Below, one piece after another: positions 112-36,842 of a DNA stretch of 36,903 nucleotides. The position numbers and the translations under genes were made by a program. Source of the stretch: Pseudomonadota bacterium (GTDB lineage Bacteria; Pseudomonadota; Alphaproteobacteria; Micropepsales; Micropepsaceae); assembly GCA_040387395.1 (NCBI GenBank), contig JAZKDV010000162.1, positions 1-36,903 of the forward strand. Reading direction: 5' to 3'. The notes below the pieces were generated by a model, which was given only the letters and a program-made list of their open reading frames with translations, did no database searches and was not told the origin of the DNA. The first letter of the stretch is position 1, and each line of letters starts with the position of its first letter.

Positions 112-786
112 TTAGTCAGCCGCGAAGCAGTAGAACTGACCCGCACCGCCGGTCTTGACCAGGGATTCCTGGCTGCAGCCCTGCGAACCGTGGGCCGAAT
201 TCCACGAAACGAAGTTGCGGTTGGTGTTGGGACCGCTGCGGTCGTGATGGCCCAGCACCGCGGAACCGTCCGCGTTCTTGGTCCAGTTGCCGCAGGTGGT
301 GTCGGTGGTTCCCAGGTTGGGCATGTAGCGGCCGGCCGAGTCCGAGCCGGTCAGCATGTCATGGGTGTTGGGCGTGTCACCGCGGCCGTTCACCGGCATA
401 CCCTTTTCATTGAGCAGGTTGGCCTTGGTCAGGTTGGAATTGGCGCCGTCATGCAGGTCGTCCACGCTCTTGGCGATGGTCACGCCCTTGGCATTGACCC
501 ACGGACCCTTGCCGATGCGGTCGCGCGCATCCACCGGACCGGCGCCGTTCGGCACCTGGGTGGCCGAGAGATAGGCGCGCCAGTTAGTCTTGGTCGAGCC
601 GGCGGCCTTGGCCAGCATCGCGCAATGCGCATCCGCGCCCGCCAGGCCGCCGAGATTGGCGCCATCGCCCTTGCCGACGCTGGTGATGAAGAAGCTCATA
701 TTGCCCTGCGCATTCACGGTGGCGGCACCCGCCAGACAGACCGCCGCGCCGGCAAACAGCAAAGAACCCCAAAGCTTGTTTTTCAT
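112..786 (-). CDS. Secreted endostatin-like / C-type-lectin-fold protein
   Basis: Sec signal peptide (MKNKLW...VNA|Q); motifs SFFITS, GGLAGADAHC, WRAYLS, TCGNWT, WNSAH, FYCFA; four Cys; GGAGGG Shine-Dalgarno upstream. Confidence 0.7.
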   Translation of the reverse strand: MKNKLWGSLLFAGAAVCLAGAATVNAQGNMSFFITSVGKGDGANLGGLAGADAHCAMLAKAAGSTKTNWRAYLSATQVPNGAGPVDARDRIGKGPWVNAKGVTIAKSVDDLHDGANSNLTKANLLNEKGMPVNGRGDTPNTHDMLTGSDSAGRYMPNLGTTDTTCGNWTKNADGSAVLGHHDRSGPNTNRNFVSWNSAHGSQGCSQESLVKTGGAGQFYCFAAD

Positions 787-933
787 GAAAAATCCCTCCC
801 TTGGAAAATTGATCGGCCGGTATCACCATGCCGAAATATGGCGTAAAAAAGGCGTATCCCGCCTTCAAAGCGCGGTTTTGCTGGCTTTATGGGGCTGCGG
901 CTGCGGTTTGTACCGTTGGAGCGGCTGCGGGAC

Positions 934-2793: not shown

Positions 2794-2845
2794 GCTAAGC
2801 GGTTACCTGCGCCGGCGAACGACGAATTATTATTGCCGCTACAGG

Positions 2846-2861
2846 GTTTATGGCGCCTTAA
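2846..2861 (-). promoter_or_regulatory. Putative CtrA-binding site upstream of the histidine kinase
   Basis: Minus strand TTAA-GGCGCCA-TAAAC (1 mismatch to TTAA-N7-TTAA), followed 11 nt later by an AT-rich -10-like CAATAAT. Confidence 0.5.
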
Positions 2862-2910
2862 GGCTTTTCCCGCGCCGCTGCCGGGCCGCCCAGGCCACAG
2901 CTTTTCCGGG

Positions 2911-3228
2911 CTATTTCACATGCACCGTCATCTTCATGGTGGGGTGGATGTGGCAGCGCACCTGGAAGGTTCCGCTGCGCAGAAAGGTTTGATTAATATT
3001 CTCGCCCGGCCCCTTCTCCTCGGAGTCGAACTGGCCGTCGACATAGACCTGATGCACGAAACTGTCGCCGTTGGTGAAAGTCAGGCTTTCGCCCCGCATG
3101 ATCGTCACGGCGGCGGGACGGAAGGCGCGGCCCTTCTGGACGATGCGCCGGTTATCCGCCGCCTGGGCCGCCAGCACCAGCGACAGGGCGGCGGTCACAA
3201 GGCAAGCCAGGGTCAGATGTTTTTTCAT
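2911..3228 (-). CDS. Periplasmic cupredoxin (type-1 copper protein, amicyanin-like ligand loop)
   Basis: Signal peptide (..AAQA|A); upstream His (FVHQVY) and C-terminal CHIHPTM giving His/Cys/His/Met ligands. Confidence 0.85.
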   Translation of the reverse strand: MKKHLTLACLVTAALSLVLAAQAADNRRIVQKGRAFRPAAVTIMRGESLTFTNGDSFVHQVYVDGQFDSEEKGPGENINQTFLRSGTFQVRCHIHPTMKMTVHVK

Positions 3229-3242
3229 GCCGTGTTCCTTCG

Positions 3243-3545
3243 CTAGTTCACACGCACAATCAGCTTCATCTTGGGATGGATATGGCAGCGCACTTCAAAG
3301 GTGCCGGAGCGGGGGAAGCTTTCCACGATATTCTGGCCCGGACGCCGCTCCTCGGAATCGAACAGCCCTTCGGAATAGATCTGGTGGATGAACTCGTCTT
3401 CGTTGGTGACGGTAATGGACTGGCCCTGGCGGATGGAGATTTCCGCTGGAAGAAAGCGGCGTCCCTTCTGGGCGATGGTGTTGGTGCCCTGCGCGAAGGC
3501 TGTCGCGGGGATGGCGATCATCAGGAGCAACGCCAGCTTCTTCAT
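3243..3545 (-). CDS. Periplasmic cupredoxin, tandem paralog
   Basis: Signal peptide (..TAFA|Q); FIHQIY and CHIHPKM; clearly homologous to 2911..3228 (QKGR.F.PA, FDSEE..PG.NI, RSGTF.VRCHIHP.MK). Confidence 0.85.
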   Translation of the reverse strand: MKKLALLLMIAIPATAFAQGTNTIAQKGRRFLPAEISIRQGQSITVTNEDEFIHQIYSEGLFDSEERRPGQNIVESFPRSGTFEVRCHIHPKMKLIVRVN

Positions 3546-3955
3546 TGGGTCACCACATGGCGCTGCATCGGCGCCAGGCGCGCCAGGAAACGGTTTTGGG
3601 TGGCGAAGGGAATGCCCACGTTGTCCATCGCCGCCTGAAGATCTTCGACCACCGCGTTGAAGTCGGCATTGGTCAGGCGCAGGCCCTTATGGGCTTCGGC
3701 CATGCCGTGCCCCTTATACTCGCAAGGTCCACCGGCGATCTGGCAGAACTGGACTTTGAACTGGGCCCGAACCCGGTCCATGTTGGATTCCTCGAAAATC
3801 TTGCTGATGCGCGGATCGGCGAGATAATTCTCCACCGAAGCATCCACGATGCGGTCAATGCCCGCCTGGCCGCCCATGTCGGTGAACAGCGTGTCCTGGG
3901 CAAACGCCGGCGAGGTGGCCAGAACCAGAAGCGAAAGCGCGAGAACCTTTTTCAT
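3542..3955 (-). CDS. Group I truncated hemoglobin (GlbN-like) with N-terminal signal peptide
   Basis: LF..MGG..GI, LADPRI..IF, GGP..Y.G..M..AH.GL, DFNAVVEDL motifs; proximal His in MAEAHKG; ATG at 3955 overlaps the upstream TGA. Confidence 0.88.
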   Translation of the reverse strand: MKKVLALSLLVLATSPAFAQDTLFTDMGGQAGIDRIVDASVENYLADPRISKIFEESNMDRVRAQFKVQFCQIAGGPCEYKGHGMAEAHKGLRLTNADFNAVVEDLQAAMDNVGIPFATQNRFLARLAPMQRHVVTQ

Positions 3956-4845
3956 CACAGTCCTGCCTGTAGCGAGAGATAGGCGCCGCGCTGATCGTCG
4001 CGGATCACGATATTGCCCAGATCGGCATAGGCCAGGGTCGCGGAGAGGTTCTTGTTGAAGAAATAGGCCGCGAAAATATCCCAGGCCGCCTGTTCCTTGG
4101 CGATGGAAAGATTGTTGGGCTTAGTGCGCAGCTCCGCCCCCACTGCAAAGCGGCGGCTGAACAGATAGGCGGCCGAGCCTTCGAACTGCGCGCTATAGCC
4201 GGCATGCCGGTCACCGCCAAAGCCCAGTATGCCGAACTGGTTGGCGCGGGTGTGGCGCCAGGTGGCGTTGACGAGCAGGCTTTGCGCCAGGAACAGTTTG
4301 CTGGCGGAAAGATAATAGTCGGTCCCCTGGTCGGATTTTCCACCCACCGCGCCGATCACCGCGCCGCGGTCGTTTTCCTTGTGCTGCAGGCCGACGGAAA
4401 GCTGCGGCAGCCAACTGTCCTGCTCATAGACCGCATCACCGATCAGCTTCAGCTTGGCGCCGAAAATGTTCTGGTGGAAGGTAAAGCCGCGCCCAAGGCC
4501 CAGCGCCGCGCCGACCTCCTGGGTGTCGAATTCCTGCCAGGCATAGGAAAGCTCCAGCCGGTCGAACAGGCCGACCGCGACGCCCGCGCTGTGCAGCGTG
4601 TAATCGGGAAGCAGCACAGTGGTGTAATGAACATTGGCGCCGACGCCGTCGCGGGTGCCATAGCCGGTGATCATGGCCCAGTTGGCCAGGCCGCCGCCGC
4701 CCGCGCCTTCGATCTGGCTGACGCCGCCGGTGGCCAACAGCTTGCCGCCGTCGAACAGATCCCAGGGCTGCGCCAGGGCGGATGTCGCCAAGATGGACAT
4801 GAAGAGCCCGGCCACAAACGCAAAACACGACAGGGCCAGACGCAT
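3955..4845 (-). CDS. DUF3034-family protein, probable outer-membrane beta-barrel
   Basis: Signal peptide; GKLLATGGVSQIEGAGGGGL.NWA.ITGYG motif; alternating amphipathic strands ending YLSLQAGL; start set to ATG 4845 (AAGGA RBS). Confidence 0.78.
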   Translation of the reverse strand: MRLALSCFAFVAGLFMSILATSALAQPWDLFDGGKLLATGGVSQIEGAGGGGLANWAMITGYGTRDGVGANVHYTTVLLPDYTLHSAGVAVGLFDRLELSYAWQEFDTQEVGAALGLGRGFTFHQNIFGAKLKLIGDAVYEQDSWLPQLSVGLQHKENDRGAVIGAVGGKSDQGTDYYLSASKLFLAQSLLVNATWRHTRANQFGILGFGGDRHAGYSAQFEGSAAYLFSRRFAVGAELRTKPNNLSIAKEQAAWDIFAAYFFNKNLSATLAYADLGNIVIRDDQRGAYLSLQAGL

Positions 4846-4888
4846 CGCAGGTCCTTGGAGAAGCACGCACTGCTCTAACCTCGCCTGG

Positions 4889-4904
4889 GTTAAGGGCGCA
4901 TAAA
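4889..4904 (-). promoter_or_regulatory. Putative CtrA-binding site upstream of the DUF3034-globin-cupredoxin operon
   Basis: Minus strand TTTA-TGCGCCC-TTAAC (1 mismatch), about 45 nt upstream of the ATG. Confidence 0.5.
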
Positions 4905-4940
4905 GCCTGGTTCCTGCTGGAATCGGCGGGCAAGCGGGGG

Positions 4941-4969
4941 TGGACAGGGGGTGGGGCTTGGCCTATATC
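4941..4969 (+). promoter_or_regulatory. Putative sigma-70 promoter of tRNA-Met
   Basis: TGGACA-N17-TATATC, 16 nt before the mature tRNA. Confidence 0.55.
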
Positions 4970-4985
4970 CCCCCACCTTCCGTGA

Positions 4986-5062
<77 letters not shown>

Positions 5063-19245: not shown

Positions 19246-20537
19246 GTGCCGTTCGCCTTTCCAACTGCGGGGCGCAGATTCAACTTCAACCATGGCGCGG
19301 GATTCTGGCCATGACCGCCGTGACGTAATTCGAAGTACAGCCTGTTATCCGATCCTTCAGCGGGCATGGTTCCAACCGGCTCGCCCGCCAGCAATTGATC
19401 GTTTGGCCTAACCGTCACGCGTCCCAGTCCCGCCAGGACCACATCGTAGCCAGTGGTTATCTCAACTATCAAGACTTGTCCGCTTTTATGGTAAGGACCG
19501 GCGAAAAGAACCTTGCCATCCGAGGGCGTAATCACCTGGGCCCCCGCCCGGGTTGCATAGGTAAGGCCCGGATTGCCCTTTTCCCCGCCTCCCGTCACGG
19601 TTCCGACCACCGGTTCCAGCAGCGAATTCCTGGCCAGTCCCCCGCCGGAACCGCTGTTCTGCGCGGTCACGAACACGACGCTTTGCTGGGAGGTTCCATT
19701 TTGGCGCAAGGCCCGGACCCGGGCCGCCAGCGCCTGGAAGTCGGCGGCCTCGCGGGCGATGACCGCCAGCTGGGCCTTCAGGCTGCCATAGGCGTCGGCC
19801 GCCCCCGCCGCTTCCTTTTCCTTGCGCGCCACAAGCTCGTCGAGTTCGGCGCGCGCGATCCCCAGGCGGACGCCGGTGTCGGCGGCCTGGTGGCGCTGTT
19901 GCTCCAGCGCCGCGCGGCTGCGCTTCAAGGCGTCGATGCGCCGCGACAGGAAAGCGGCCTGGGCATAGACCGACGGCAGCGACGAGCCGATCAGCATGGC
20001 GCCCCGCGCCGCGCCCAAGGCATCGCCCGGATGCATGGCGATCGCGGGCGGCATGTCGTGCTGCAATCTTTGCAGAACCGCCAGAAGGCGGGTCACCGCC
20101 ACACGGTCGTTGGCGAAGCCGGCGCTGAGCCGCCTGTTCTCCGCTTCCAGCCTTTCGATCTGCAGGTCGGCGGCGATGCGCATCCGTTCCAGCGCCTCGA
20201 TGCGCTGGGCGGTGGCGATCAGGCGGCGGCGCAGCTCCATCGCCTCGGCCGCCAGCATTTCGCTTTTCGCCCGCGCGCTGGCCAGTTGCGGCTGGCCCTG
20301 CTTGAGCTCCGACGACAGGCTCTGGAGTTGCTGCGCGCTGGACGGCAGGGTGGACAGCACCTTGCCCGGCAGCGCGCGGGAAAGATCGATCGGTACTTCG
20401 GGCCTGTCGGCGCGCAGCGCCGGACGCGGCGTGGGGCGGAACGGCGCCATCACTTTTTTTGGTTTCTGTGCGAGCGCGTCGAACGCGGGTTGTCCCAGAA
20501 GAGCGGCGGCCAGGAGGAAGGCGAGCCTGGCTTTCAC
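19242..20537 (-). CDS. envC: Murein hydrolase activator EnvC family (coiled coil plus degenerate M23)
   Basis: Signal peptide, long coiled coil, C-terminal DGKVLFAG...GQVLIV...GEPVG...LYFELR; gpmI-envC-ctpA order. Confidence 0.85.
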   Translation of the reverse strand: MKARLAFLLAAALLGQPAFDALAQKPKKVMAPFRPTPRPALRADRPEVPIDLSRALPGKVLSTLPSSAQQLQSLSSELKQGQPQLASARAKSEMLAAEAMELRRRLIATAQRIEALERMRIAADLQIERLEAENRRLSAGFANDRVAVTRLLAVLQRLQHDMPPAIAMHPGDALGAARGAMLIGSSLPSVYAQAAFLSRRIDALKRSRAALEQQRHQAADTGVRLGIARAELDELVARKEKEAAGAADAYGSLKAQLAVIAREAADFQALAARVRALRQNGTSQQSVVFVTAQNSGSGGGLARNSLLEPVVGTVTGGGEKGNPGLTYATRAGAQVITPSDGKVLFAGPYHKSGQVLIVEITTGYDVVLAGLGRVTVRPNDQLLAGEPVGTMPAEGSDNRLYFELRHGGHGQNPAPWLKLNLRPAVGKANGT

Positions 20538-22072
20538 GCGCCGCGCACCAGCAGGGAATGACCACTCATCACCTGCGGCTGGGGAAGGCCCATCAGTTCG
20601 AGCAGCGTGGGCGCGACATCGGCCAGCCGGCCATTCTTCAATGTTGCGCCCGCCGGCGCGCCAAAGGCGATGACGGGGACATCGAGCGTGGTGTGCGCGG
20701 TGTAAGGGACGTCGCTACCGGGATCCTGCATCATCTCGATATTGCCGTGATCGGCGGTGAGCAGCATCACGCCGTCCACCTTCTGCAGCGCCGTCATCAG
20801 CCGGCCCAGGCAGATGTCGATCGTGTCCACCGCTTTCACCGCCGCGCTCATGATGCCGGTATGGCCCACCATGTCGGGATTGGCGTAGTTGCAGACGATC
20901 AGGTCGTATTTGCCGCTGACAATGGCCTCTTCCAGCTTTTCGGTGACTTCGTAGGCGCTCATTTCCGGCTTGTGGTCGTAGGTCGCCACTTTGGGACTGG
21001 GCACCAGGATACGGTCCTCGCCGTCGAACACCTGCTCGCGTCCGCCATTCAGGAAGAAGGTGACATGGGCGTATTTCTCGGTCTCGGCGATGCGCAGTTG
21101 CTTCAGGCCGGAACGCGCCACCACTTCGCCCAGCGTCTCACGCACATCCTCCGGCGGGAAGACCGCACCCATCAGCGTCCTGAGATGATCGGAATATTCG
21201 GTCAGGCCCGCCGCGCCGCCGAACACCGGAATGCGCACGCGTTCGAAACCGTCAAAGCCCTTGTCCAGAAGCGCCGCGGAAATCTCGCGCGCCCGGTCGG
21301 CGCGAAAATTGGCGAACAGCAGCACGTCGCCATCTTCCACCCCGGCATAATCGCCCAGAACGCAGGGCACCAGGAATTCGTCGGTGACGTCTTCGGCATA
21401 GGAGGATTCAATCGCCGCAGCCGCATCGTCGAAGCGGCGGGCGGAAGCGTCGATGATGGCGCTGGTGCATTTCTCCACCCGGTCCCAGCGCTGGTCGCGG
21501 TCCATGGCATAGAAACGGCCCGACAGGGTCGCCAGCCTTACGCCGGCCAGCCCCGCGATGTCGCCGAGGAATTTGGCGACAAAGCCGCCGGCACTTTTGG
21601 GCGGCGTGTCGCGGCCATCGAGAAAGCCATGCACGAAGACCGGCACGCCCGATGCGCTGCAGATTTTCACCAGCGCGGCGATGTGGTCCTGATGGGAATG
21701 CACCCCGCCGGGCGACAGCAGGCCCATGATGTGCACGGCGCGCTGGGCGCTTTTGGCATTCTCGATCAGCGACAGCAGCACGGGGCGGCGCGCCAGGCTG
21801 CCGTCTTCGATCGCGACATCGATGCGCGGCAGGTCCTGGGCCACCACCCGCCCGGCGCCGATATTCATGTGCCCGACTTCGGAATTGCCCATCTGCCCCT
21901 TGGGCAGGCCGACCGCATTGCCGCTGGTTTCCAGCAGGGCATGGGGGCAGGTCGCCAGCAGGCGGGTGTAATTGGGAGTGTGACCTTGCGCGATGGCATT
22001 GTCCGGGGCGGCTTCCGGGCGCCAGCCCCAGCCATCGAGAATGCAAAGAAGGGCGGGGCGCGGCGCGGTCAT
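20534..22072 (-). CDS. gpmI: 2,3-bisphosphoglycerate-independent phosphoglycerate mutase
   Basis: ILDGWG, GQMGNSEVGH, GGVHSH, DGRDTPP, AETEKYAHVTFF, NPDMVGHTG, TADHGN. Confidence 0.98.
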   Translation of the reverse strand: MTAPRPALLCILDGWGWRPEAAPDNAIAQGHTPNYTRLLATCPHALLETSGNAVGLPKGQMGNSEVGHMNIGAGRVVAQDLPRIDVAIEDGSLARRPVLLSLIENAKSAQRAVHIMGLLSPGGVHSHQDHIAALVKICSASGVPVFVHGFLDGRDTPPKSAGGFVAKFLGDIAGLAGVRLATLSGRFYAMDRDQRWDRVEKCTSAIIDASARRFDDAAAAIESSYAEDVTDEFLVPCVLGDYAGVEDGDVLLFANFRADRAREISAALLDKGFDGFERVRIPVFGGAAGLTEYSDHLRTLMGAVFPPEDVRETLGEVVARSGLKQLRIAETEKYAHVTFFLNGGREQVFDGEDRILVPSPKVATYDHKPEMSAYEVTEKLEEAIVSGKYDLIVCNYANPDMVGHTGIMSAAVKAVDTIDICLGRLMTALQKVDGVMLLTADHGNIEMMQDPGSDVPYTAHTTLDVPVIAFGAPAGATLKNGRLADVAPTLLELMGLPQPQVMSGHSLLVRGA

Positions 22073-22121: not shown

Positions 22122-22694
22122 TTAGCGGAATTCCGGCCCCGTGGCCCAGAGCACCAGCGACTTGCGCACCCCCCTGGTCACCGGCGTGACCCGGTGCAGG
22201 AAGAAGGATGGAAAGGCGATCACGGTGCCGCGGCCGCGCGGGGCCGATATCGGCTGGCTTTCGATCTGGAACTGCAGCTCGCAGCCGTCGTAATCGGCCG
22301 GATCGCTGAGCTGGACGCTGAGGGAAATCTTGCGCGGCTTGAAGTTCTTGTGCCCGAAATCGATGTGCCAGTCGTAATGACCACCCTGCCGCCCGTCATA
22401 GATGGTGTATTGCAGGTTCTCGAGCCCGGTCAGGTCGAAGCGGTAGAAGTCGGTATTCAGCCGCAGCACGATCTGGGACAGCCGCTCATAGAGCTTTTGC
22501 GTGTCGGGACCGTGTTCGATCCAGGCCAGATCGGTGATGCGCACCGCGTCGATTTCCCCGCTTTGCCCTTCCAGCGTGCCCCTTTTGTGCAGCAGCGCAT
22601 CGCCATAAGCGACGATGGCATCGACTTCCGCCGGGTCCAGCGCGCCTTCCCAGGCTACGAAGGGCCCCTGCACAACGGGATGCGGTGATGACAT
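22122..22694 (-). CDS. 2OG-Fe(II) oxygenase (prolyl-hydroxylase/PKHD-like), paralog E
   Basis: QYTIY..GGHYDWHID, RKISLSVQLSD, FPSFFLHRVTPVTRGVRKSLVLW: HxD...H facial triad and RxS. Confidence 0.9.
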   Translation of the reverse strand: MSSPHPVVQGPFVAWEGALDPAEVDAIVAYGDALLHKRGTLEGQSGEIDAVRITDLAWIEHGPDTQKLYERLSQIVLRLNTDFYRFDLTGLENLQYTIYDGRQGGHYDWHIDFGHKNFKPRKISLSVQLSDPADYDGCELQFQIESQPISAPRGRGTVIAFPSFFLHRVTPVTRGVRKSLVLWATGPEFR

Positions 22695-22787
22695 AGAGCA
22701 GGCCCTCGCAAGCAGCGTTCCGAGGCCTATTTGAACTCAGGTTCCACGGCCCGCACAACAAGCGATTTTCGGCACGGTGCGGCCCCT

Positions 22788-24386
22788 TCAGGCGCGCTGG
22801 CGCCGGCCGAACAGCATGGTGATGTTGATGCGGCGGTTCTCATAGCCGTCCGCAAAGGCGATCTCGTCGGTCTTGTGAAACAGGTTGGAGTCGAAGATCA
22901 CCGCGCGGTTGGCGCGATACGGAATCTTGATCGGCTTGGCGCCGGTTTTGGCCAGAAGTTCATAGGCCGCGCTTTCATCGGCATTGAACTTGGCAAAGTC
23001 CCAGGCCAATGGCGCCTGCTTGTCCCAGACCACCAGGCCGCCGCCTTCCGGATCGAGATTGGCTTCGTCCGGCGAGATCCAGAAATTCACATTCACCGCC
23101 GCCTCGTCGGCATGGATGCCGATGCCTTCCAGCTTGCTGTCATACTTGAAGGCCCAGTGGTAGCGCAGCGGATGTTCGGCGAAAATCTCGCGGAAGGTGG
23201 TGCTCAATTCTTCCGCGATCTGCGCCAGAAGCGGCGCCGCGAAGCCCGACTCCGGGAAGGCGCCCAGATAGCCCTGGTTATAGGCGGTGTGCCAGACAAC
23301 CGAGCCCCGGCAATAGCGGCGCAGGCTCGTCAGCGCTTCGGGTGTCAGCAGATTGTCGATCACCACCAGGTTGGGATCGCTGCTGAGCCAGGCTTTTGCA
23401 ACCGCCGCCGCATTCTGCGGATTGACCGCCTGCCCGCTCAACCTTTCGCCGCCGACGAAACGCGTGCTTCCACCATGGGCGGCGCGCCATTGCTGCTGCT
23501 CGCGGTCATGGGCGATCTGATGCGCGGGCTTGTTCTGCGCCGGCGCGGCGTCGCCATAAGCCAGTTCCGCGACCCGGCGAAAATCGCTGAAGCTTTCCTC
23601 CAGGCGGTTCATTTCGCTCAAGACCTTGCCGCGAACCGCCAGGGCGGGAACATTGTCGGGATCGCTCGCCAGCGCGCTGTCCAGGCTTTCCAGCGCTTCC
23701 TCGAACCGGCTGAGTTCGCGCAAGGTGAAGCCGCGATTACTCAGGGCCACCGGCAAGCCGGGCTGTACCGCCAACGCGCGGTCCAGGCTCTCCAGTGCTT
23801 CTTCGGCGCGGCCCAGCTCCGACAGGGTTGCGCCACGGTCGGTCAGGATCTCGGCAACATCGGGTTGAACCGCCAGCACGGCGTCATAGTCCTTGAGCGC
23901 CAGGTCAAAGCGTTTCATCTGGCGCAGAATGTCGGCGCGGCGATGCAGCGCTTCGATGTCGCCGGGGCGCAGCGCCAGCGACCAGTTGGTGCAGTCCAGC
24001 GCCTCTTCCGAACGTTTCAGCTGCACCAGGACACCCGACAGGGCATTCAGCGCCGCAAATTCGCCCGGGGAAAGCGTCAGCGCCCGGCGGTAACTGGCGA
24101 CAGCTTCCTCGGGGCGGCCTGCCCCCGTCTGCACATGGCCCAGATTGATCCAGGCCTCGGCGACTTGCGGATTCAGTTTCAGCGCGGCCGTGATCAGATC
24201 GATTGCCTGCAGATGCTGGCCCTGCTGGAAACGGATCACCCCCAGCATGTGGCGCGGCGCGAAGCTGGCCGGCTCCATTGCCAGCACCTGATGATACAGC
24301 CGCTCGGCCGCGGCCAGGTTGCCGCCTTGATGAAGCGTGATGGCCTGGTCGAACAATTCCTGCAGCGCAGGGCGGGGCAAATTCAT
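22788..24386 (-). CDS. TPR-repeat protein fused to a C-terminal 2OG-Fe(II) oxygenase domain
   Basis: About 8 N-terminal 34-aa TPRs (AWINLG, ALSNRG, EEALESLDRAL); C-terminal WAFKYD..GIGIHADEAAVNVNFW...AVIFDSNLFHKT...RRINITMLF; start ATG 24386 (GTG 24419 possible). Confidence 0.82.
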   Translation of the reverse strand: MNLPRPALQELFDQAITLHQGGNLAAAERLYHQVLAMEPASFAPRHMLGVIRFQQGQHLQAIDLITAALKLNPQVAEAWINLGHVQTGAGRPEEAVASYRRALTLSPGEFAALNALSGVLVQLKRSEEALDCTNWSLALRPGDIEALHRRADILRQMKRFDLALKDYDAVLAVQPDVAEILTDRGATLSELGRAEEALESLDRALAVQPGLPVALSNRGFTLRELSRFEEALESLDSALASDPDNVPALAVRGKVLSEMNRLEESFSDFRRVAELAYGDAAPAQNKPAHQIAHDREQQQWRAAHGGSTRFVGGERLSGQAVNPQNAAAVAKAWLSSDPNLVVIDNLLTPEALTSLRRYCRGSVVWHTAYNQGYLGAFPESGFAAPLLAQIAEELSTTFREIFAEHPLRYHWAFKYDSKLEGIGIHADEAAVNVNFWISPDEANLDPEGGGLVVWDKQAPLAWDFAKFNADESAAYELLAKTGAKPIKIPYRANRAVIFDSNLFHKTDEIAFADGYENRRINITMLFGRRQRA

Positions 24387-24461
24387 TACCCGTGGTTCGC
24401 GCAGAAAAAATCTTTCCACATGACAAAACCGCCCGCGGGTACAAGCGCTGTCGCGTGCAAC

Positions 24462-24627
24462 GATCGTAACATTTGATGAGCTTTCGGCGCAGACTTTGCG
24501 GCGCCTATTTGCGCTCAGCTTCTATCGCGCACAACGAGTGATTGCCGCACGACCCGATGTTAGCAGTGTCAGGCGCGATGTTATCAGTGTCAGGCGCACA
24601 GATGATAACATTTGATAGGTTTCGCCG
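24462..24627. repeat. Nested intergenic repeats: 21-bp tandem pair, 9-bp inverted repeat and flanking imperfect direct repeat
   Basis: CGATGTTA(G/T)CAGTGTCAGGCG twice (24555-24575, 24576-24596); ATGTTATCA...TGATAACAT (24578-24586 / 24603-24611); TAACATTTGAT at 24467-24477 and 24606-24616. Confidence 0.85.
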
Positions 24628-24638
24628 TTTGCCAGCGT

Positions 24639-25238
24639 CTACTTGAACTCCGGTCCTACCGCCCAGACGACGAGCGACTTTCGCACGCCCGATGTGATCG
24701 GTGTCACGCGATGCAGGACGTAGGACGGAAATGCGATCACCGCACCGCGCGTCCTGGGCGCAACATCGGTGAGATTGCCGGCGCGCACTTCCAGGTCGCA
24801 GCCCTGATAGTCCGCCGAATCGCTCAACTGGATACTGATCGACAATTTGCGCGGCTCCTGCGCCGCCGCGTCATAACCTTTGCCGTAATCCTTGTGCCAG
24901 TCGAAGTGGCCGCCTTCGGCGCCGTCGTAAACGGCATATTGAAACGTCACCACGCCGGACAGGTCATAGCGGAAGAACTGGGCGTTCAGCCGCAGCACCA
25001 CCTCTTCCATCCGGGCGTAAAAACTTTCCGTCTGCGCATCGCGCATCAGCCAGGCGACGCGGGTGACGCGGATACTGTCGAGCCCCGTCCCCTTGGCGGC
25101 GAGCTCCGCCCTCTCCTGGCCCAGCCGGTCAGCATGCTGCTCGATCGCGTCCAGCTCTGCCTTGCTGAACAGATTCTCCCAGACCACCAGGCCGCCCGGC
25201 ATGAGGACGGGTGATGACGCGGGATTGAATAACGACAT
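24639..25238 (-). CDS. 2OG-Fe(II) oxygenase, paralog D
   Basis: FQYAVY..GGHFDWHKD, RKLSISIQLSD, FPSYVLHRVTPITSGVRKSLVVW; start ATG 25238. Confidence 0.9.
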   Translation of the reverse strand: MSLFNPASSPVLMPGGLVVWENLFSKAELDAIEQHADRLGQERAELAAKGTGLDSIRVTRVAWLMRDAQTESFYARMEEVVLRLNAQFFRYDLSGVVTFQYAVYDGAEGGHFDWHKDYGKGYDAAAQEPRKLSISIQLSDSADYQGCDLEVRAGNLTDVAPRTRGAVIAFPSYVLHRVTPITSGVRKSLVVWAVGPEFK

Positions 25239-25275
25239 GTACGCCCCCACTCGTGTCTTATTTACTCAAGGACCT

Positions 25276-25848
25276 TCATTTGAAATCCGGTCCGGTGATC
25301 CAGATCACCACCGCCTTGCGCGTACCGCTGACGATCGGCGTCACCCGGTGCAGGACATAGGACGGAAAGGCGATGACCGCACCCCTCTCCCGCGAGGCGG
25401 TATCCACCGTCTTGCTGGCATGGAACTGCAGGTCGCAGCCTTCATACTGCGAACCATCGGTCAGCTGCAGCGAAAAGGAAAGCTTGCGCGGCACTTCCAC
25501 GTAACCCTGGTCCACATGCCAGTCGAAATAGGCCCGCTCCGGCCCGTCATAGATGGTGTACTGGAACAATTCGGAAAAGCCGCTGAGCGAGAACTGCCAT
25601 ATCTTGTCGTTGAGGGTGCGGGCGACGCGTTCCATCCGGTCATAGAACCAGTCGGTTTCGGCGTTGCGCGCGATCCAGGCGGTGCGCGAGATGCGCGAGG
25701 CATCGTCTTCCTTGCGCGGCGCCTCGCCCGATACCAGCGCCTTCTCCGCCGTCAGCCTGTCGCCGTAAGCCTCGATACGGTCCAGTTCCTCGGGCGTGAA
25801 AGCGCCGGTCCAGGTGGCGAAGGGCAGCGTGCGGGTGCGGCTTTCCAT
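25276..25848 (-). CDS. 2OG-Fe(II) oxygenase, paralog C
   Basis: FQYTIY..AYFDWHVD, RKLSFSLQL, FPSYVLHRVTPIVSGTRKAVVIW; start ATG 25848 by alignment with paralogs. Confidence 0.9.
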   Translation of the reverse strand: MESRTRTLPFATWTGAFTPEELDRIEAYGDRLTAEKALVSGEAPRKEDDASRISRTAWIARNAETDWFYDRMERVARTLNDKIWQFSLSGFSELFQYTIYDGPERAYFDWHVDQGYVEVPRKLSFSLQLTDGSQYEGCDLQFHASKTVDTASRERGAVIAFPSYVLHRVTPIVSGTRKAVVIWITGPDFK

Positions 25849-25853
25849 GGCGA

Positions 25854-26447
25854 TCAGCGGAATTTTGGGCCTGTGACCCAGACGACCATCGACCTGCGCG
25901 TGCCGGACGTCACCGGCGTCACCCGGTGCAGGACATGCGAGGGAAAGGCGATGGCCGAGCCCCGCTCGCGCGGCGCGTCTTCCACCTTGTTGCCGGCATT
26001 GAACTGCAGGTCGCATCCTTCATAGGACGCGGCCTCGCTGAGCTGCACCGTCATGGAAAGCTTGCGCCGCACATGCAGCGGGCCCTGATCGACATGCCAG
26101 TCGTAATGGCCGCCCGCCGCGCCGTCATAGACGGTGTATTGAAAATGTTCGGAGAAGCCCGTGAGATCATATTGATAGGACTGGTCGTTGAGAGCCCGCG
26201 TCACGCCCTGCATGCGGTTGTAGATCCACTTGGTCTCGGCATTCTGCTCGATCCAGGCGGTGCGCGTGATACGGACCTTGTCATGCTCCGTGGTCTGCTC
26301 GTCTTCCGGAACGCCCAGAAGATTGGCCCGCTCGGGCATCAGCCCGTCACCATAGGATTCGATCCGGTCCATTTCGCCGGACGAGAAGGCATTCGCCCAG
26401 GAGACGAAGGTCTGCGTCGAGTCCTGATTTTCGCCCCCCCGGGTCAT
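25854..26447 (-). CDS. 2OG-Fe(II) oxygenase, paralog B
   Basis: FQYTVY..GGHYDWHVD, RKLSMTVQLS, FPSHVLHRVTPVTSGTRRSMVVW; ATG overlaps the upstream TGA. Confidence 0.9.
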   Translation of the reverse strand: MTRGGENQDSTQTFVSWANAFSSGEMDRIESYGDGLMPERANLLGVPEDEQTTEHDKVRITRTAWIEQNAETKWIYNRMQGVTRALNDQSYQYDLTGFSEHFQYTVYDGAAGGHYDWHVDQGPLHVRRKLSMTVQLSEAASYEGCDLQFNAGNKVEDAPRERGSAIAFPSHVLHRVTPVTSGTRRSMVVWVTGPKFR

Positions 26448-27034
26448 CAGAGAAACTTTGGTCCGGTGGTCCAGACCACCAGCGACCTTCGCGTGCCTGA
26501 TAGCACCGGCGTTACGCGGTGCAGGACATAAGAGGGAAAGGCGACGACGGTCCCACGCGCGCGCGGCGCGACCTCGACATTGCCGCCGGCGCAGAATTGC
26601 AGGTCGCAGCCCTGATACTCGGACGGATCGCTGAGCTGCACCGTCATGGAGAGCTTGCGCGGCACTTGGAGCGGCCCGTGATCGACATGCCAGTCATAAT
26701 GCCCCCCTTCGCTGCCATGGTACACCGTGTACTGGAAATTCTCGGAAAAGCCGCGCAGGTCATATTGATAGGTCTGGTCGTTCAGCGCTTGGGCCACGCC
26801 CTGCATGCGGTCGAACAGCCATTTGGTGTCGGCATTGGGCTCGATCCAGGCGGTATGGGTGATGCGCAGGCGGTCGGCGGCGGCGGTCATGTCGCCCTGC
26901 GCGGTGCCCGCGAGCTGCACCCGCTCCGGCATCAGGCTGTCGCCATAGGCCACGATCCGGTCCACTTCCGCGGGCGTGAAGGCATCCGCCCAGGCGGTAA
27001 AGGTCAGCGTGGAGAGGCGGGTTTCTTCGTTCAT
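26447..27034 (-). CDS. 2OG-Fe(II) oxygenase, paralog A
   Basis: FQYTVY..GGHYDWHVD, RKLSMTVQLSD, FPSYVLHRVTPVLSGTRRSLVVW. Confidence 0.9.
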   Translation of the reverse strand: MNEETRLSTLTFTAWADAFTPAEVDRIVAYGDSLMPERVQLAGTAQGDMTAAADRLRITHTAWIEPNADTKWLFDRMQGVAQALNDQTYQYDLRGFSENFQYTVYHGSEGGHYDWHVDHGPLQVPRKLSMTVQLSDPSEYQGCDLQFCAGGNVEVAPRARGTVVAFPSYVLHRVTPVLSGTRRSLVVWTTGPKFL

Positions 27035-33558: not shown

Positions 33559-35046
33559 ATGAGCGCCGCCTATCAATCCGGCCTGAAGCTGTCGTCACAG
33601 GGACGGCATGTGGAAGCCATCGCCCAGTATGAACAGGCATTGGCGGCCAAGCCGGACGACACCAAGGTGCTGTTCGCGCTGGGCAATACCGCCCAGGCGC
33701 TGGGTTTGGGCGACGCCGCCCAGCAATTCTATCGCCAGGTGCTGGCGCTGGAGCCCGCCCGGCTGGAAGCCCTGGTCAATCTCGCCAATATCTTGCGCAC
33801 CGCCGGCCAGTTCGATGCGGCGATTGCCTTGCTGGAGCCGGCCGTAGCCCGCGCCCCCGAAAGCCCGGAGCTGCACCTGACCTTAGGATCGGCGCGGCGC
33901 GAAAAGGGCGAGGACGAGGCGGCGATATTCCACTACCGCGCCGCGCTGGCGATCCATCCGACTTACGCCCCCGCGCTGGCCAACCTGGCCGACATGCTGT
34001 GCGACGCGGGCGACCGCGTGCAGGCCCGAACACTGTACGATGCCGCCATCAAGGCCGAACCCCGCAACCCGCAAGCGCGGCTGAACCGGGCGGTTCTGCA
34101 TCTGCTGAACGGTGATCTGAAAGAGGGCTGGCGCGACTATGCCGCGCGGGCCGAAGTGCCGGGCAAGGTGCCCAGCATCGGCGGTGAACAGCGTTTGGTC
34201 CCTTGGACCGGCGGACCCTTGAAGCGCACGCGCCTTTTGGTGCGCGCCGAACAGGGCGTGGGCGACCAGATCCTGTTCGCCAGCGTGATTCCCGATCTCG
34301 CCGCCCGCGCCAGGGCCGAAGGCGGCAGCATCGTGATGGAATGCGAGCCCCGTCTGGTCGCGCTGTTCGCCCGTTCCTTTCCCGACATCACGGTCCGGCC
34401 GTCGGTGATTCGAGAGCTCGGCGGCGCGCCTATAGCGGATTATGGCTGGCTGAAATCCGCCGGCGGCGCCAATGCCGCGATCCTGATGGGCAGCCTGCCG
34501 CGCATCCTGCGCGGCACCATCGAGGCCTTTCCCAATCCGCACGCCTTCCTGGTACCGGACGCAGGCGAAGTGGCCCATTGGAAATCACAATTCGGCGAAG
34601 GCGCGGTCGGCTTGTGCTGGCGCAGCGGCAAGCTGGGCGGCCACCGCTCGATCCAATTCGCCTCGCTGGCCGCCTGGGGAGAGTTTCTCCGCGGCCTGGA
34701 TCGCAATTTTGTCTGCGTGCAGTACGACGCCAGCGCCGAAGAAGTGGCCGAACTGGAAAAGCTGAGCGGCCGCAAGATCTTTGTGCCGCAAGGCATCGAC
34801 CAGAAGAATGAACTCGACCGCACGGCCGCGCTGATAGCGGCTCTGAGTGATGTCATCACCGCCCCCACCGCCGTGTCCTGGCTTTCGGCCGGCGTGGGCA
34901 CCCGCACCTTCAAGATGCTGTACAACACCAGCTGGATGGCCCTGGGCCAGAGCTATGAGCCTTTCGCGCCATCCTGTGAATGTGTGATGCCGCAGGAACG
35001 CGGCGACTGGTCCGACGTCTTCGCGCAGGTCAAAGCGAAATTCTAG
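33559..35046 (+). CDS. flmG: TPR-GT-B glycosyltransferase, FlmG/FlbA-like flagellin glycosyltransferase
   Basis: About 5 N-terminal TPRs then EQGVGDQILFAS, CEPRLVALFARSFP, MGSLP, GLCWRS, VQY, LDRTAALIAALSDVI; CtrA box; adjacent nonulosonic-acid genes. Confidence 0.7.
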   Translation: MSAAYQSGLKLSSQGRHVEAIAQYEQALAAKPDDTKVLFALGNTAQALGLGDAAQQFYRQVLALEPARLEALVNLANILRTAGQFDAAIALLEPAVARAPESPELHLTLGSARREKGEDEAAIFHYRAALAIHPTYAPALANLADMLCDAGDRVQARTLYDAAIKAEPRNPQARLNRAVLHLLNGDLKEGWRDYAARAEVPGKVPSIGGEQRLVPWTGGPLKRTRLLVRAEQGVGDQILFASVIPDLAARARAEGGSIVMECEPRLVALFARSFPDITVRPSVIRELGGAPIADYGWLKSAGGANAAILMGSLPRILRGTIEAFPNPHAFLVPDAGEVAHWKSQFGEGAVGLCWRSGKLGGHRSIQFASLAAWGEFLRGLDRNFVCVQYDASAEEVAELEKLSGRKIFVPQGIDQKNELDRTAALIAALSDVITAPTAVSWLSAGVGTRTFKMLYNTSWMALGQSYEPFAPSCECVMPQERGDWSDVFAQVKAKF

Positions 35047-36842
35047 AGCGCGGCTTTCAGCGGCTCACGCGCAACCGCCAAAGCCGCCGACAGGTCGGCC
35101 GCAATGCGCGCCGCGCCCTGCCCGTCCATCAGCGACAGACCGACATTGCGCATCTCGCGCCGTGCCGCCGGCTTGTTCAGCAGCCATTGCACCGAGCGCA
35201 GGATGTCTTCATCCGACGCCTTGTCCATCGTGCCCAGCGAGAGGCCCATGCCGGCATCGGCAAAGGCGGACGCGGACGCCGCATGATCTTCGGTCAGGCC
35301 CAGATAGATCGCCGGAACGCCGCAAGCCGCCAGTTCGTAGGCGGTGACGCCAAAGGCGCAGAGCGCGACATCGGCGCTGGCATAGGCGGTGGACAGGTCG
35401 TCGGCGCCCTCCACCGTCTCATAATTCTTTTTCAGCGACACTAGGCGGCGGGCCACGGCGGAGCCGTCCTTCATCCCGGTGCCGATGACGAAGCGCACGC
35501 GGAATACCGAATCCAGCGGTCCCAGCGCCTTGGCCATGCGCAAAGTCAGGCCAAAGGGATCACTGCCGCCCATCGCCACCAGCAGGGTGGGCAGCGAAGA
35601 CGGCGCACGCGCCGCGCCGGTGCCCGGACCCATCCCCAGCAGCGACCATTCCCATCCCAGGCGCGGCAGGGTGTTGGAGCCCGTCCAGTCCAGCGCCTTG
35701 GCGCCCGGCACCGGCGGATAATAGGCATAGTCGGCAGCCAGGCGGCGGTCGTGGCCGTCATCGATCACGGCCGTGACCGACACGCCGCGCTTGAGCTTTT
35801 CCAGTTCGGCGCGGCCAGGGCCTTCGCGGCCATCCAGCAGGAAAATGTCAGGACTGTTGGCGTCGATCAGGGTTTCGAGGTCGGAGGCGCCATGCAGCAT
35901 GGCGGTCTGGAATCCGGCGCGGCGGATGGGCGTGGCGGCGTCCTCGCTGCCATTGAGCGCGAAGATCGCGCCAATGCCTTCGCGGTCGCGCAAGGCGCGC
36001 GCCAGCGCCACCATGCGCTTGACATGGCCATAGCCGAACTTGCCGCCGCCATCGCAGCGGATCAACGCCAGCCCGCCCGACATGCGGATCGATTTCTGGC
36101 GCACATGGGCGTTGATCTGGTTCAGTTCCGGCTCGCGTTCCAGCAGCAGCAACAGGTCGGCCAGCGAGGCCTCGCCGGCCCTGGCCGTCAGCCGGGCGTG
36201 CACCGCTTCGATAAAGGCGAGATCGTCCGGCGTGTCGATGGTGAAGCGGCCGCCCTTTTTCGCCAGCGACGGATAGGGCGCGGCGCGCACGATCTTCACG
36301 AAATCGGGATGCAGCTTGAAATAGCCGGTGACGTGCTCGCGCGCTGCCGGATCATGGGCGGCATCCATCATCAACCGGTCCAGAGCGCGGCGGCTGAAGG
36401 GATCGACGCCTTCATGGGCGCATTCCGCGCCTTCTTCCAGCAGCACATAATCGCCGTCCTGCTCGATCAGCGTGGCGATCAGGTGATCGACGAAACCGGC
36501 ATCGATAAAGGGCGCGTCCGACGAGACGCGGACGATAAGATCGGCATCCAGCTTTTCGGCCGCGCCTGCATAGCGCGCCAGCACATCGTCTTCCGGACCG
36601 CGCACCACAATGACGTTGTTGGCGTTGCACCATTCGACAATCGCCTCATCGGCGGGATTGGTGGTGGTGGCGACCGCGATGTCTTCCAGCAGCCGGCATT
36701 TCTTGAGCCGGTGAACGATATGCCACAGCAGCGGCTGGCCGGCGATGGGCTTGAGCACCTTGCCGGGCAGGCGTGTCGACCCCATGCGGGCCTGGATCAC
36801 CGCTACGACACGGATGTTTTCACGGGCGAAAGTCGCGCTCAC
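35043..36842 (-). CDS. Fused SpsF/PseF-type cytidylyltransferase and PseG-type UDP-sugar hydrolase (FlmC-FlmD-like)
   Basis: N-terminal IQARMGSTRLPGKVL, GPEDDVLARY, REHVT.Y, TIDTPDDL; C-terminal RCDGG..FGYGHVKRMVALA, MGGSDP, FGVTAYELAACGVP, DGQGAARIA. Confidence 0.85.
   Translation of the reverse strand: MSATFARENIRVVAVIQARMGSTRLPGKVLKPIAGQPLLWHIVHRLKKCRLLEDIAVATTTNPADEAIVEWCNANNVIVVRGPEDDVLARYAGAAEKLDADLIVRVSSDAPFIDAGFVDHLIATLIEQDGDYVLLEEGAECAHEGVDPFSRRALDRLMMDAAHDPAAREHVTGYFKLHPDFVKIVRAAPYPSLAKKGGRFTIDTPDDLAFIEAVHARLTARAGEASLADLLLLLEREPELNQINAHVRQKSIRMSGGLALIRCDGGGKFGYGHVKRMVALARALRDREGIGAIFALNGSEDAATPIRRAGFQTAMLHGASDLETLIDANSPDIFLLDGREGPGRAELEKLKRGVSVTAVIDDGHDRRLAADYAYYPPVPGAKALDWTGSNTLPRLGWEWSLLGMGPGTGAARAPSSLPTLLVAMGGSDPFGLTLRMAKALGPLDSVFRVRFVIGTGMKDGSAVARRLVSLKKNYETVEGADDLSTAYASADVALCAFGVTAYELAACGVPAIYLGLTEDHAASASAFADAGMGLSLGTMDKASDEDILRSVQWLLNKPAARREMRNVGLSLMDGQGAARIAADLSAALAVAREPLKAAL

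What the first reader, a model, noticed from the sequence alone, without database searches (positions are those of the whole stretch)
22122..27034. Array of five paralogous 2OG-Fe(II) oxygenases plus a TPR-fused oxygenase: candidate multi-enzyme protein-hydroxylation system
Seen: five co-oriented 190-199 aa paralogs sharing QY.(I/V)Y..HxD..RK(L/I)S..QL..GC(D/E)L..FPS..LHRVTP..SG.R.S..W..GP.F. Four are closely spaced (TGATG overlap, 5-nt and 37-nt gaps) and the fifth lies beyond a sixth, different oxygenase fused to about 8 TPRs. All six keep the HxD...H iron triad, so none looks decayed. None has a signal peptide, and no NRPS, PKS or obvious precursor peptide is adjacent. Known: this fold includes prolyl/lysyl hydroxylases, PKHD-type enzymes and cyanophage oxygenases, usually single or scattered in bacterial chromosomes. 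Inference: a dedicated cytoplasmic hydroxylation cascade on a protein or glycan. The array lies between two flagellar blocks and about 6.5 kb from a FlmG-like TPR-glycosyltransferase, so flagellin or another exported protein is a candidate, but this link is positional only.
Basis: partly seen in the sequence, partly recalled or inferred. Interest (0 to 1): 0.82.

Follow-up and report, generated by a model that had tools for sequence, protein, structure and literature searches.

The report
Tandem prolyl-hydroxylase-like genes in Rhizomicrobium
An uncultured alphaproteobacterium carries five diverged copies of an enzyme predicted to hydroxylate prolines in proteins, whose phage relatives sit beside collagen-like fibre genes; the copies likely act on different host proteins that are still unknown and likely not flagellin, and the larger sixth enzyme is likely a late insertion rather than a partner.

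Summary
The array is real: five intact paralogs (45-68% identical) plus an 8-TPR oxygenase. The host groups with Rhizomicrobium/Micropepsales. The small genes occupy a fixed site upstream of gpmI in one clade, in 1-5 copies; position-specific orthologs are under purifying selection and keep distinct substrate loops. Fold and N-terminal profile match peptidyl prolyl 4-hydroxylases (PPHD, PHD2, vCPH); the PiuC/YbiX cut-offs are not met. The dedicated-cascade reading fails. The TPR-oxygenase lies in 1 of 38 such arrays, has five scattered paralogs in this genome, and is flanked by fragments of small-oxygenase genes, one from a paralog intact in kin. Four 97-100% complete relatives with 4-5 copies have no flagellin match. 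Phage homologues sit beside collagen-like fibres with Pro in the Y position (31 of 40 such fibres have one), but no such protein was found in this host. This scan noted phage fibre-hydroxylase links before on other DNA. Best reading: an expanded family of stand-alone protein prolyl hydroxylases, probably of phage origin (direction not shown). Host substrates are unknown and no chemistry has been shown.

The parts
26447..27034 (-). ox1, 195-aa prolyl-4-hydroxylase-like 2OG/Fe(II) oxygenase (H116, D118, H172, R182)
   Evidence: PF13640 E 1e-12; PHROG61 E 4e-30; model pLDDT 91, Z 19.1 to PPHD 4iw3; dN/dS 0.07-0.21 in 4 ortholog pairs
25854..26447 (-). ox2, 197-aa paralog of the ox1 subfamily (68% identical to ox1); absent from the closest relative L041
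25276..25848 (-). ox3, 190-aa paralog with its own subfamily
   Evidence: PHROG61 E 7e-23 (no Pfam hit at E 0.001); dN/dS 0.07-0.21 in 5 pairs; tree
24639..25238 (-). ox4, 199-aa paralog with a long loop after HxD; relatives also occupy a second fixed locus beside NAD-glutamate dehydrogenase
   Evidence: dN/dS 0.11-0.20 in 5 pairs
24505..24580 (-). degenerate duplicate of the ox4 3' end
   Evidence: 73% over 78 nt to ox4, E 8e-6
24398..24454 (-). 5' remnant of a sixth small paralog (ox4b) that is intact at this position in relatives L042, L043, L044 and L065
   Evidence: 14 of 19 aa identical to ox4b residues 3-21 of L042, E 1e-4 in a local database; tree
22788..24386 (-). 8-TPR protein fused to a distinct 2OG-oxygenase domain (H425, D427, H504, R519); likely a late insertion; one of six copies in this genome
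   Evidence: dN/dS 0.13 against L041
22727..22771 (-). 3' remnant of an ox4-type gene, ending in its stop codon
   Evidence: 12 of 14 aa identical to the ox4 C-terminus; 83-87% DNA identity to ox4 ends of three relatives, E about 1e-11
22122..22694 (-). ox5, 190-aa paralog with its own subfamily, 49 nt upstream of gpmI
   Evidence: dN/dS 0.14-0.27 in 5 pairs
20534..22072 (-). gpmI (phosphoglycerate mutase), the fixed downstream anchor, followed by an M23-family (EnvC-like) gene and an S41 peptidase gene; context, not part of the system
   Evidence: Pfam; 38 related loci

Best explanation
The five small genes are a tandem expansion, at a fixed site upstream of gpmI, of one enzyme family predicted to be peptidyl prolyl 4-hydroxylases, each copy likely working alone in the cytoplasm on different host proteins encoded elsewhere, while the TPR-oxygenase is likely a late insertion that displaced a sixth copy. 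Shown: fixed site, variable copy number, stable subfamilies, purifying selection, remnants beside the TPR gene. Inferred mechanism: Fe(II) held by HxD...H and 2-oxoglutarate held by the distal Arg react with O2 to give succinate, CO2 and trans-4-hydroxyproline in a peptide clamped by the finger loop and the loop after HxD; those loops differ between subfamilies, which would set substrate choice. Inferred origin: a phage gene whose native job is likely to hydroxylate Y-position prolines of collagen-like fibres, re-purposed after capture. The host substrates are not identified; EF-Tu (as for PPHD) and Pro-rich linkers are candidates only.
For: Top structural matches are PPHD-EF-Tu 4iw3 (Z 19.1, rmsd 3.6, 180 aligned), Trichoplax PHD (19.1) and viral collagen P4H vCPH (19.0), above PiuC (17.6); Foldseek gives the same top hits. 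The N-terminal-half profile hits P4H-TM, BaP4H and PHD2 (E 1e-4 to 7e-3) and does not list PiuC; the invariant Arg, Tyr and HxD and the near-invariant Trp align with the PHD2 motifs. dN/dS is 0.07-0.27 in 19 ortholog pairs against 0.11-0.19 for gpmI. Position-specific clades have subfamily-specific loops. 38 gpmI-linked loci hold 1-5 copies and only 1 holds the TPR-oxygenase domain. Remnants flank the TPR gene. Phage homologues: 25 of 49 have a Gly-rich ORF within 1.5 kb; 31 of 40 distinct GNPG-motif fibres have a family member in the locus, against 7 of 80 neck-gene-anchored loci. Ghosh 2012 (PMC3368898, passages) states that bacterial and viral collagens lack the Y-position Pro preference.
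Against: No chemistry or expression is shown. Identity to any characterised P4H is only about 20%, and whole-length sequence searches rank PiuC/Sbal_3634 first. No G-x-P-G or collagen-like protein was found in this genome (88.5% complete), and only 3 of 36 relatives have a weak Collagen match, so the phage substrate type is missing in the host. In the independent neck-gene set no Y-Pro fibre occurred, Gly-rich proteins were not significantly enriched beside the oxygenase (4 of 7 vs 21 of 73, p 0.20) and the enriched class was X-Pro collagen (2 of 7 vs 1 of 73, p 0.019). The GNPG pattern was taken from oxygenase-anchored fibres, so one search is not free of kinship. Phage monophyly was not rejected (p-AU 0.37), so phage-to-host transfer is not shown; other alphaproteobacterial copies branch outside.
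Confidence: 0.55

Rival explanations
1. A genome-wide, dispersed tailoring network. The small oxygenases and TPR-oxygenases hydroxylate a shared surface or exported protein other than flagellin, and TPR-fused glycosyltransferases, sulfotransferases and methyltransferases then decorate the hydroxyls.
For: Of 201 genus genomes 51 have the small family, 60 the TPR-oxygenase domain and 43 both. This genome has 31 TPR proteins by a local search. In relatives a small oxygenase sometimes lies near a TPR-GT41, JmjC, TPR-sulfotransferase or TPR-methyltransferase gene (L210, L211, L217; L474). Skp1 hydroxylation followed by glycosylation is a precedent (PMC7864055, passages).
Against: The co-occurrence follows one clade on a 46-genome gpmI tree and the independent-pairs test is not significant (3 pairs, median p 1). 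No shared substrate gene lies beside these loci.
Confidence: 0.2
2. PiuC/YbiX-like role: small-molecule hydroxylation or 2OG turnover tied to iron or redox balance rather than protein modification.
For: Best whole-length PDB sequence hits are PiuC and Sbal_3634 (E 3e-17); PiuC Z 17.6 is within 1.5 of the best; single copies sit in varied metabolic contexts.
Against: Scores are far below all four PKHD/YbiX cut-offs (best 72 bits against 143). The PiuC match covers only the C-terminal half. The genome has its own PiuC-like gene behind a 768-aa gene that looks like a TonB-dependent receptor (C158; judged by eye). No iron-uptake gene flanks the array.
Confidence: 0.15
3. One reading: a dedicated six-enzyme cascade in which the TPR domain presents flagellin or another flagellar export substrate.
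For: Co-orientation and tight spacing; flagellar genes on both sides; the TPR-oxygenase is under purifying selection (0.13).
Against: TPR-oxygenase in 1 of 38 arrays; remnants of small paralogs at its ends; five other copies scattered in the genome; no flagellin match in 7 of 27 near-complete family-bearing genomes, including G022, G080, G167 and G209 with 4-5 copies, and no FliF in the four flagellin-less relatives tested.
Confidence: 0.05
4. Anti-phage function: host copies mis-hydroxylate Pro-rich proteins of infecting phages.
Against: The only PADLOC match of the small genes is the generic CRISPR-associated 2OG profile; no defence-island context; purifying selection as strong as on gpmI.
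Confidence: 0.05

Closest known systems
Pseudomonas PPHD (EF-Tu prolyl 4-hydroxylase, 4iw3) and the PHD/EGLN family
   Same: Best structural match (Z 19.1); stand-alone cytoplasmic bacterial enzyme; same HxD...H...R...W layout
   Different: About 21% identity; up to five diverged tandem copies; substrate unknown here
Chlorovirus PBCV-1 vCPH (5c5t), viral collagen prolyl 4-hydroxylase
   Same: Z 19.0, rmsd 2.7, 165 aligned; phage members of this family lie beside collagen-like genes
   Different: vCPH uses Lys for the 2OG carboxylate (recalled), this family Arg; no collagen-like substrate found in the bacterium
PHROG 61 / T4-GC 412 phage 2OG-Fe(II) oxygenases (e.g. HTVC008M AGE60406)
   Same: Sequence family match (PHROG61 E 1e-21 to 6e-33; AGE60406 E 1e-43 in a 21-protein set); Phold paper reports EGLN3 likeness of phage 2OG oxygenases and lists PHROG 61 among human-like groups (PMC12774648, passages)
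   Different: Chromosomal, fixed, duplicated and matched in GC3 to its neighbours (0.80-0.82 against 0.81 for gpmI)
Tandem dioxygenase arrays of cyanophage Syn9 and firmicute Syn9-gp52-like triplets (Iyer et al. 2010, PMC2938197, section 11)
   Same: Tandem 2OG oxygenases including a TPR-fused family; the TPR-oxygenase domain here is weakly related to gp52 (E 2.5e-6 in a 21-protein set)
   Different: Syn9 mixes at least five families with halogenases; here five copies of one family that is not gp52-like (E 1.8), and no halogenase
PKHD-type hydroxylases PiuC/YbiX
   Same: Best whole-length sequence hits in the PDB, C-terminal half
   Different: Below the family cut-offs; no TonB receptor beside the array; about 30 aa shorter

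Membership tests
2OG-Fe(II) oxygenase superfamily (small paralogs) | DSBH fold with HxD...H triad and 2OG-binding Arg/Lys | tested here: met
   PF13640 over cut-off in 4 of 5, PHROG61 in 5 of 5
2OG-Fe(II) oxygenase superfamily (TPR-fused domain) | DSBH fold with HxD...H triad and Arg | tested here: met
Peptidyl prolyl 4-hydroxylases (PHD/PPHD/vCPH type) | Fold nearest to P4H structures | tested here: met
   Top three Z-scores are P4Hs, tied at 19.0-19.1; PiuC 17.6
Peptidyl prolyl 4-hydroxylases (PHD/PPHD/vCPH type) | Conserved substrate-site residues (finger-loop Arg..Trp, Tyr before the DSBH, aromatic before HxD, Arg after HxD, terminal Trp) | tested here: met
   Profile alignment to PHD2, P4H-TM and BaP4H over the N-terminal half; invariant columns. 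The aromatic before HxD is Phe rather than Tyr in ox3 and ox4. The roles of these residues in PHD2 are recalled.
Peptidyl prolyl 4-hydroxylases (PHD/PPHD/vCPH type) | Catalyses trans-4-hydroxylation of peptidyl proline | not testable with these tools
   needs an enzyme assay
PKHD-type hydroxylase PiuC/YbiX | NCBIfam PRK05467 score over cut-off | tested here: not met
   best 72 bits against the lowest cut-off of 143
PKHD-type hydroxylase PiuC/YbiX | Encoded behind a TonB-dependent iron receptor | tested here: not met
   neighbours are gpmI and an MFS or flgI gene in 38 loci
Syn9-gp52-like tandem arrays (Iyer 2010) | Homology to Syn9 gp52 | tested here: not met
   small family profile E 1.8; only the TPR-fused domain has a weak match. 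The paper's supplement with family lists could not be read.
   1 of 38 loci, 6-kb flanks, 4 loci cut by contig ends
Flagellin modification system (FlmG type) | Lost or decaying when flagellin is lost | tested here: not met
   arrays of 4-5 copies kept in G022, G080, G167 and G209 without a flagellin match; G022 and G080 each have one copy with internal stops

The most novel reading that the evidence does not exclude
A bacterial lineage domesticated the prolyl 4-hydroxylase that aquatic phages use on animal-like (Y-position Pro) collagen fibres and diversified it into at least five substrate-specific subfamilies, giving the bacterium its own hydroxyproline proteome that TPR-fused glycosyl-, sulfo- and methyltransferases then decorate, a Skp1-like hydroxylate-then-glycosylate pathway in a bacterium.
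Probability: 0.2. Interest if true: 0.72.

Novelty: new variant of a known kind. Interest (0 to 1): 0.42.

Why it matters
Few bacterial protein prolyl hydroxylases have a known substrate (PPHD on EF-Tu, PMC7864055 passages). Five selected paralogs with different substrate loops would point to a wider bacterial hydroxyproline proteome and give small, soluble enzymes to test. The phage side makes an open question testable: what virus-encoded P4H-like genes modify is described as cryptic (PMC9301287, passages), and Y-Pro collagen-like fibres beside this family are direct candidate substrates, contrary to the statement that viral collagens lack Y-Pro preference (PMC3368898, passages).

Tried and rejected
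Flagellin as substrate: rejected. This genome itself has no Flagellin_N match but has FliF and is 88.5% complete, so that blank was not used. TPR-oxygenase as co-evolving partner: genus-level co-occurrence (43 of 51) collapses to one clade (the 46 genomes were hand-picked across presence classes, and 15 of the 60 chosen had no gpmI match). Host substrate search: no G-x-P-G, collagen-like or phage-fibre-like protein in this genome; the DNA pattern in five relatives gave scattered hits near control level; Collagen Pfam in 3 of 36 genomes, weak. Neck-gene-anchored control did not reproduce a Y-Pro link. Complex prediction of a phage family member with a 33-residue fibre segment gave no answer (score 0.02) and is not used as evidence. 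Sequencing runs: no RNA holder listed. Promoter and terminator scan at chance level. TPR-oxygenase domain in IMG/VR by single query: no confirmed relative; one cyanophage hit in GenBank phages. No shared flanks among the TPR-oxygenase paralogs of this genome. AU test of phage monophyly not rejected; the tree with the Rhizomicrobium clade joined to the fibre-linked phage clade scored 25 log units above the quick free tree, but the group was named after seeing the tree. Ten paper searches returned no paper on this array or on Y-Pro phage fibres paired with this family; subscription journals are mostly not covered, and the Iyer 2010 supplement could not be read and may list these families.


Full report
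Observation. I call the small genes ox1-ox5 from 27034 downward. Four pass Pfam 2OG-FeII_Oxy_3, all five match PHROG61, and none reaches a PKHD/YbiX cut-off. The TPR protein has 8 repeats. Its C-terminal domain has no Pfam family but folds as a 2OG oxygenase and belongs to a large family (2171 clusters at E 0.001). Titles of the closest related loci place the host among Rhizomicrobium/Micropepsales.

Distribution. The small family was found in 11 of 36 same-genus genomes and 0 of 24 genomes of other families with a single query, in 51 of 201 genus genomes with a profile, and as single copies in 16 of 300 other genomes of the class with a wider profile. Of 79 related loci, 38 lie directly upstream of gpmI, with 1 (10 loci), 2 (18), 3 (3), 4 (4) or 5 (3) copies; 41 lie elsewhere. 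These include a second fixed site near NAD-glutamate dehydrogenase and a P22-like prophage. On a 46-genome gpmI tree the upstream oxygenase is confined to one supported clade; 7 of the 10 genomes outside it have flgI directly upstream of gpmI with no oxygenase, one more shows flgI behind a split gpmI match, and two show no window gene. The flagellar flanks are therefore the backbone into which the gene inserted.

The paralogs are maintained, not drifting. Array positions form orthologous groups across species. dN/dS is 0.07-0.27 in 19 ortholog pairs, like gpmI at 0.11-0.19; ox2 had no ortholog in the test. The loop after HxD is conserved within and differs between subfamilies; this loop and the finger loop bind substrate in prolyl hydroxylases (PMC7864055, section 8 part 1). 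GC3 matches the neighbours.

The TPR-oxygenase is a latecomer. Its domain occurs in 1 of 38 gpmI-linked loci, the 95%-identical relative L041. Other relatives have a further small paralog, ox4b, between ox4 and ox5. In the window the 5' end of ox4b survives at 24398-24454, just before the TPR start, and the 3' end of an ox4-type gene at 22727-22771, just after its stop. The genome holds five more copies of this TPR-oxygenase in unrelated places, one with an internal stop. Across the genus 43 genomes have both families, 8 only the small one, 17 only the TPR one and 133 neither, but this follows one clade and the independent-pairs test is not significant.

Flagellin is unlikely. Of 27 near-complete genomes with the family, 7 have no Flagellin_N match, among them G022 (97% complete, 4 copies), G080 (100%, 5), G167 (98%, 5) and G209 (99%, 4). 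FliF was also not found in the four flagellin-less relatives tested. G022 and G080 each have one copy with internal stops, so some decay occurs there.

What the enzyme is. The ox1 model (pLDDT 91) matches PPHD, Trichoplax PHD and viral collagen P4H best (Z 19.0-19.1), with PiuC at 17.6; Foldseek ranks PPHD and PHD2 first. Whole-length sequence profiles rank PiuC first, over the C-terminal half only. A profile of the N-terminal, substrate-binding half hits P4H-TM, BaP4H, PHD2 and algal P4H, weakly (E 1e-4 to 1e-2), and does not list PiuC. This supports 'works like a peptidyl prolyl hydroxylase'; activity is untested.

Phage context. The family is abundant in viral contigs (530 confirmed, limit reached; 349 GenBank phage records). 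Of 49 distinct phage members, 25 have a Gly-rich ORF within 1.5 kb. Conversely, 31 of 40 distinct fibres found by a GNPG motif have a member in the locus, against 7 of 80 loci anchored on a neck gene. Among 57 distinct collagen-like ORFs, 35 of 39 with Pro mainly in the Y position lie within 2 kb of a member, against 2 of 11 with Pro in X; these sets were anchored on the oxygenase or on the Y-Pro motif, so the contrast is biased. Against this reading, the neck-anchored set held no Y-Pro fibre and its oxygenase loci were enriched for X-Pro collagens instead (2 of 7 vs 1 of 73). Y-position Pro is the hydroxyproline site of animal collagen and is reported as not preferred in bacterial and viral collagens (PMC3368898, passages). 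Earlier notes of this scan report phage fibre-hydroxylase cassettes on other DNA; they are not independent evidence.

Origin and substrate. The Rhizomicrobium copies, with three gammaproteobacterial ones, form one clade (SH-aLRT 98) within a mostly phage group, while most other alphaproteobacterial copies branch outside (25 locus groups were thinned out). Phage monophyly was not rejected and a sister relation to the fibre-linked phage clade is compatible, so phage origin is likely but not shown. No fibre-like substrate was found in the host, and single copies in other bacteria show no common neighbour. I infer action in trans on host proteins encoded elsewhere.

Comparison and verdict. Tandem dioxygenase arrays with a TPR-fused member are in print for cyanophage Syn9 and firmicutes (PMC2938197, passages and section 11; supplement unreadable). 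The small family is not Syn9-gp52-like. EGLN3 likeness of phage 2OG oxygenases is in print (PMC12774648, passages), and viral P4H genes have been linked loosely to collagen in tail fibres (PMC9301287, passages). PMC7029224 (passages) added nothing on this family. I found no paper on this array in ten searches. It is a new variant of a known kind: a selected, subfunctionalised expansion of P4H-like enzymes with an unrelated insertion, not a dedicated cascade. Interest 0.42.

Noticed in passing
L126:1662-5174, L123:3-2267, L125:3058-5055, L140 and loci L300-L379: Phage collagen-like proteins with Pro almost only in the Y position (e.g. 50 Y against 1 X in L126), directly upstream of this oxygenase family; L126 also carries an ordinary X-Pro collagen further upstream and a glycosyltransferase downstream.
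   Followed up: partly
L026:9676-10260, L120, L024, L025, L087: A closely related subfamily (about 80% DNA identity) sits in mobile-looking contexts, including on the opposite strand between portal and capsid genes of a P22-like prophage; some share about 250 nt of downstream DNA.
   Followed up: partly
window genome G000, contigs C5, C18, C29, C36, C38, C52, C130, C191, C194, C222, C227, C234, C237 and others: 31 TPR proteins found by a local search, many ending in what look like GT41, 2OG_Oxy_5 or methyltransferase domains (judged from C-termini, not scanned); a cupin/JmjC-like gene follows the C194 TPR-oxygenase.
   Followed up: partly
L027 (G022:C35:16000-35900), L044, L046: Flagellar genes flgI and the FlmG-like gene are truncated or split in relatives that lack flagellin, a snapshot of flagellum loss.
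   Followed up: partly
L036, L103, L105, L107, L113: Second fixed locus of an ox4-like subfamily directly behind the NAD-glutamate dehydrogenase gene, whose product is the 2-oxoglutarate co-substrate; link positional only.
   Followed up: no
window 35043-36842: Fused cytidylyltransferase plus PseG-like hydrolase beside the FlmG-like TPR protein, a likely nonulosonic-acid pathway gene.
   Followed up: no
window 112-5000: Sensor kinase, two cupredoxin-like proteins, a bacterial globin and DUF3034 in one cluster, followed by a 224-aa ORF with a weak endostatin-domain match.
   Followed up: no
G000:C256:3994-5040: Exported protein with a run of about 30 prolines; a possible but untested substrate type.
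   Followed up: no
L071, L073, L076, L078, L079: Gammaproteobacterial (one titled Steroidobacteraceae) single copies nest inside the Rhizomicrobium clade, suggesting transfer between classes.
   Followed up: no
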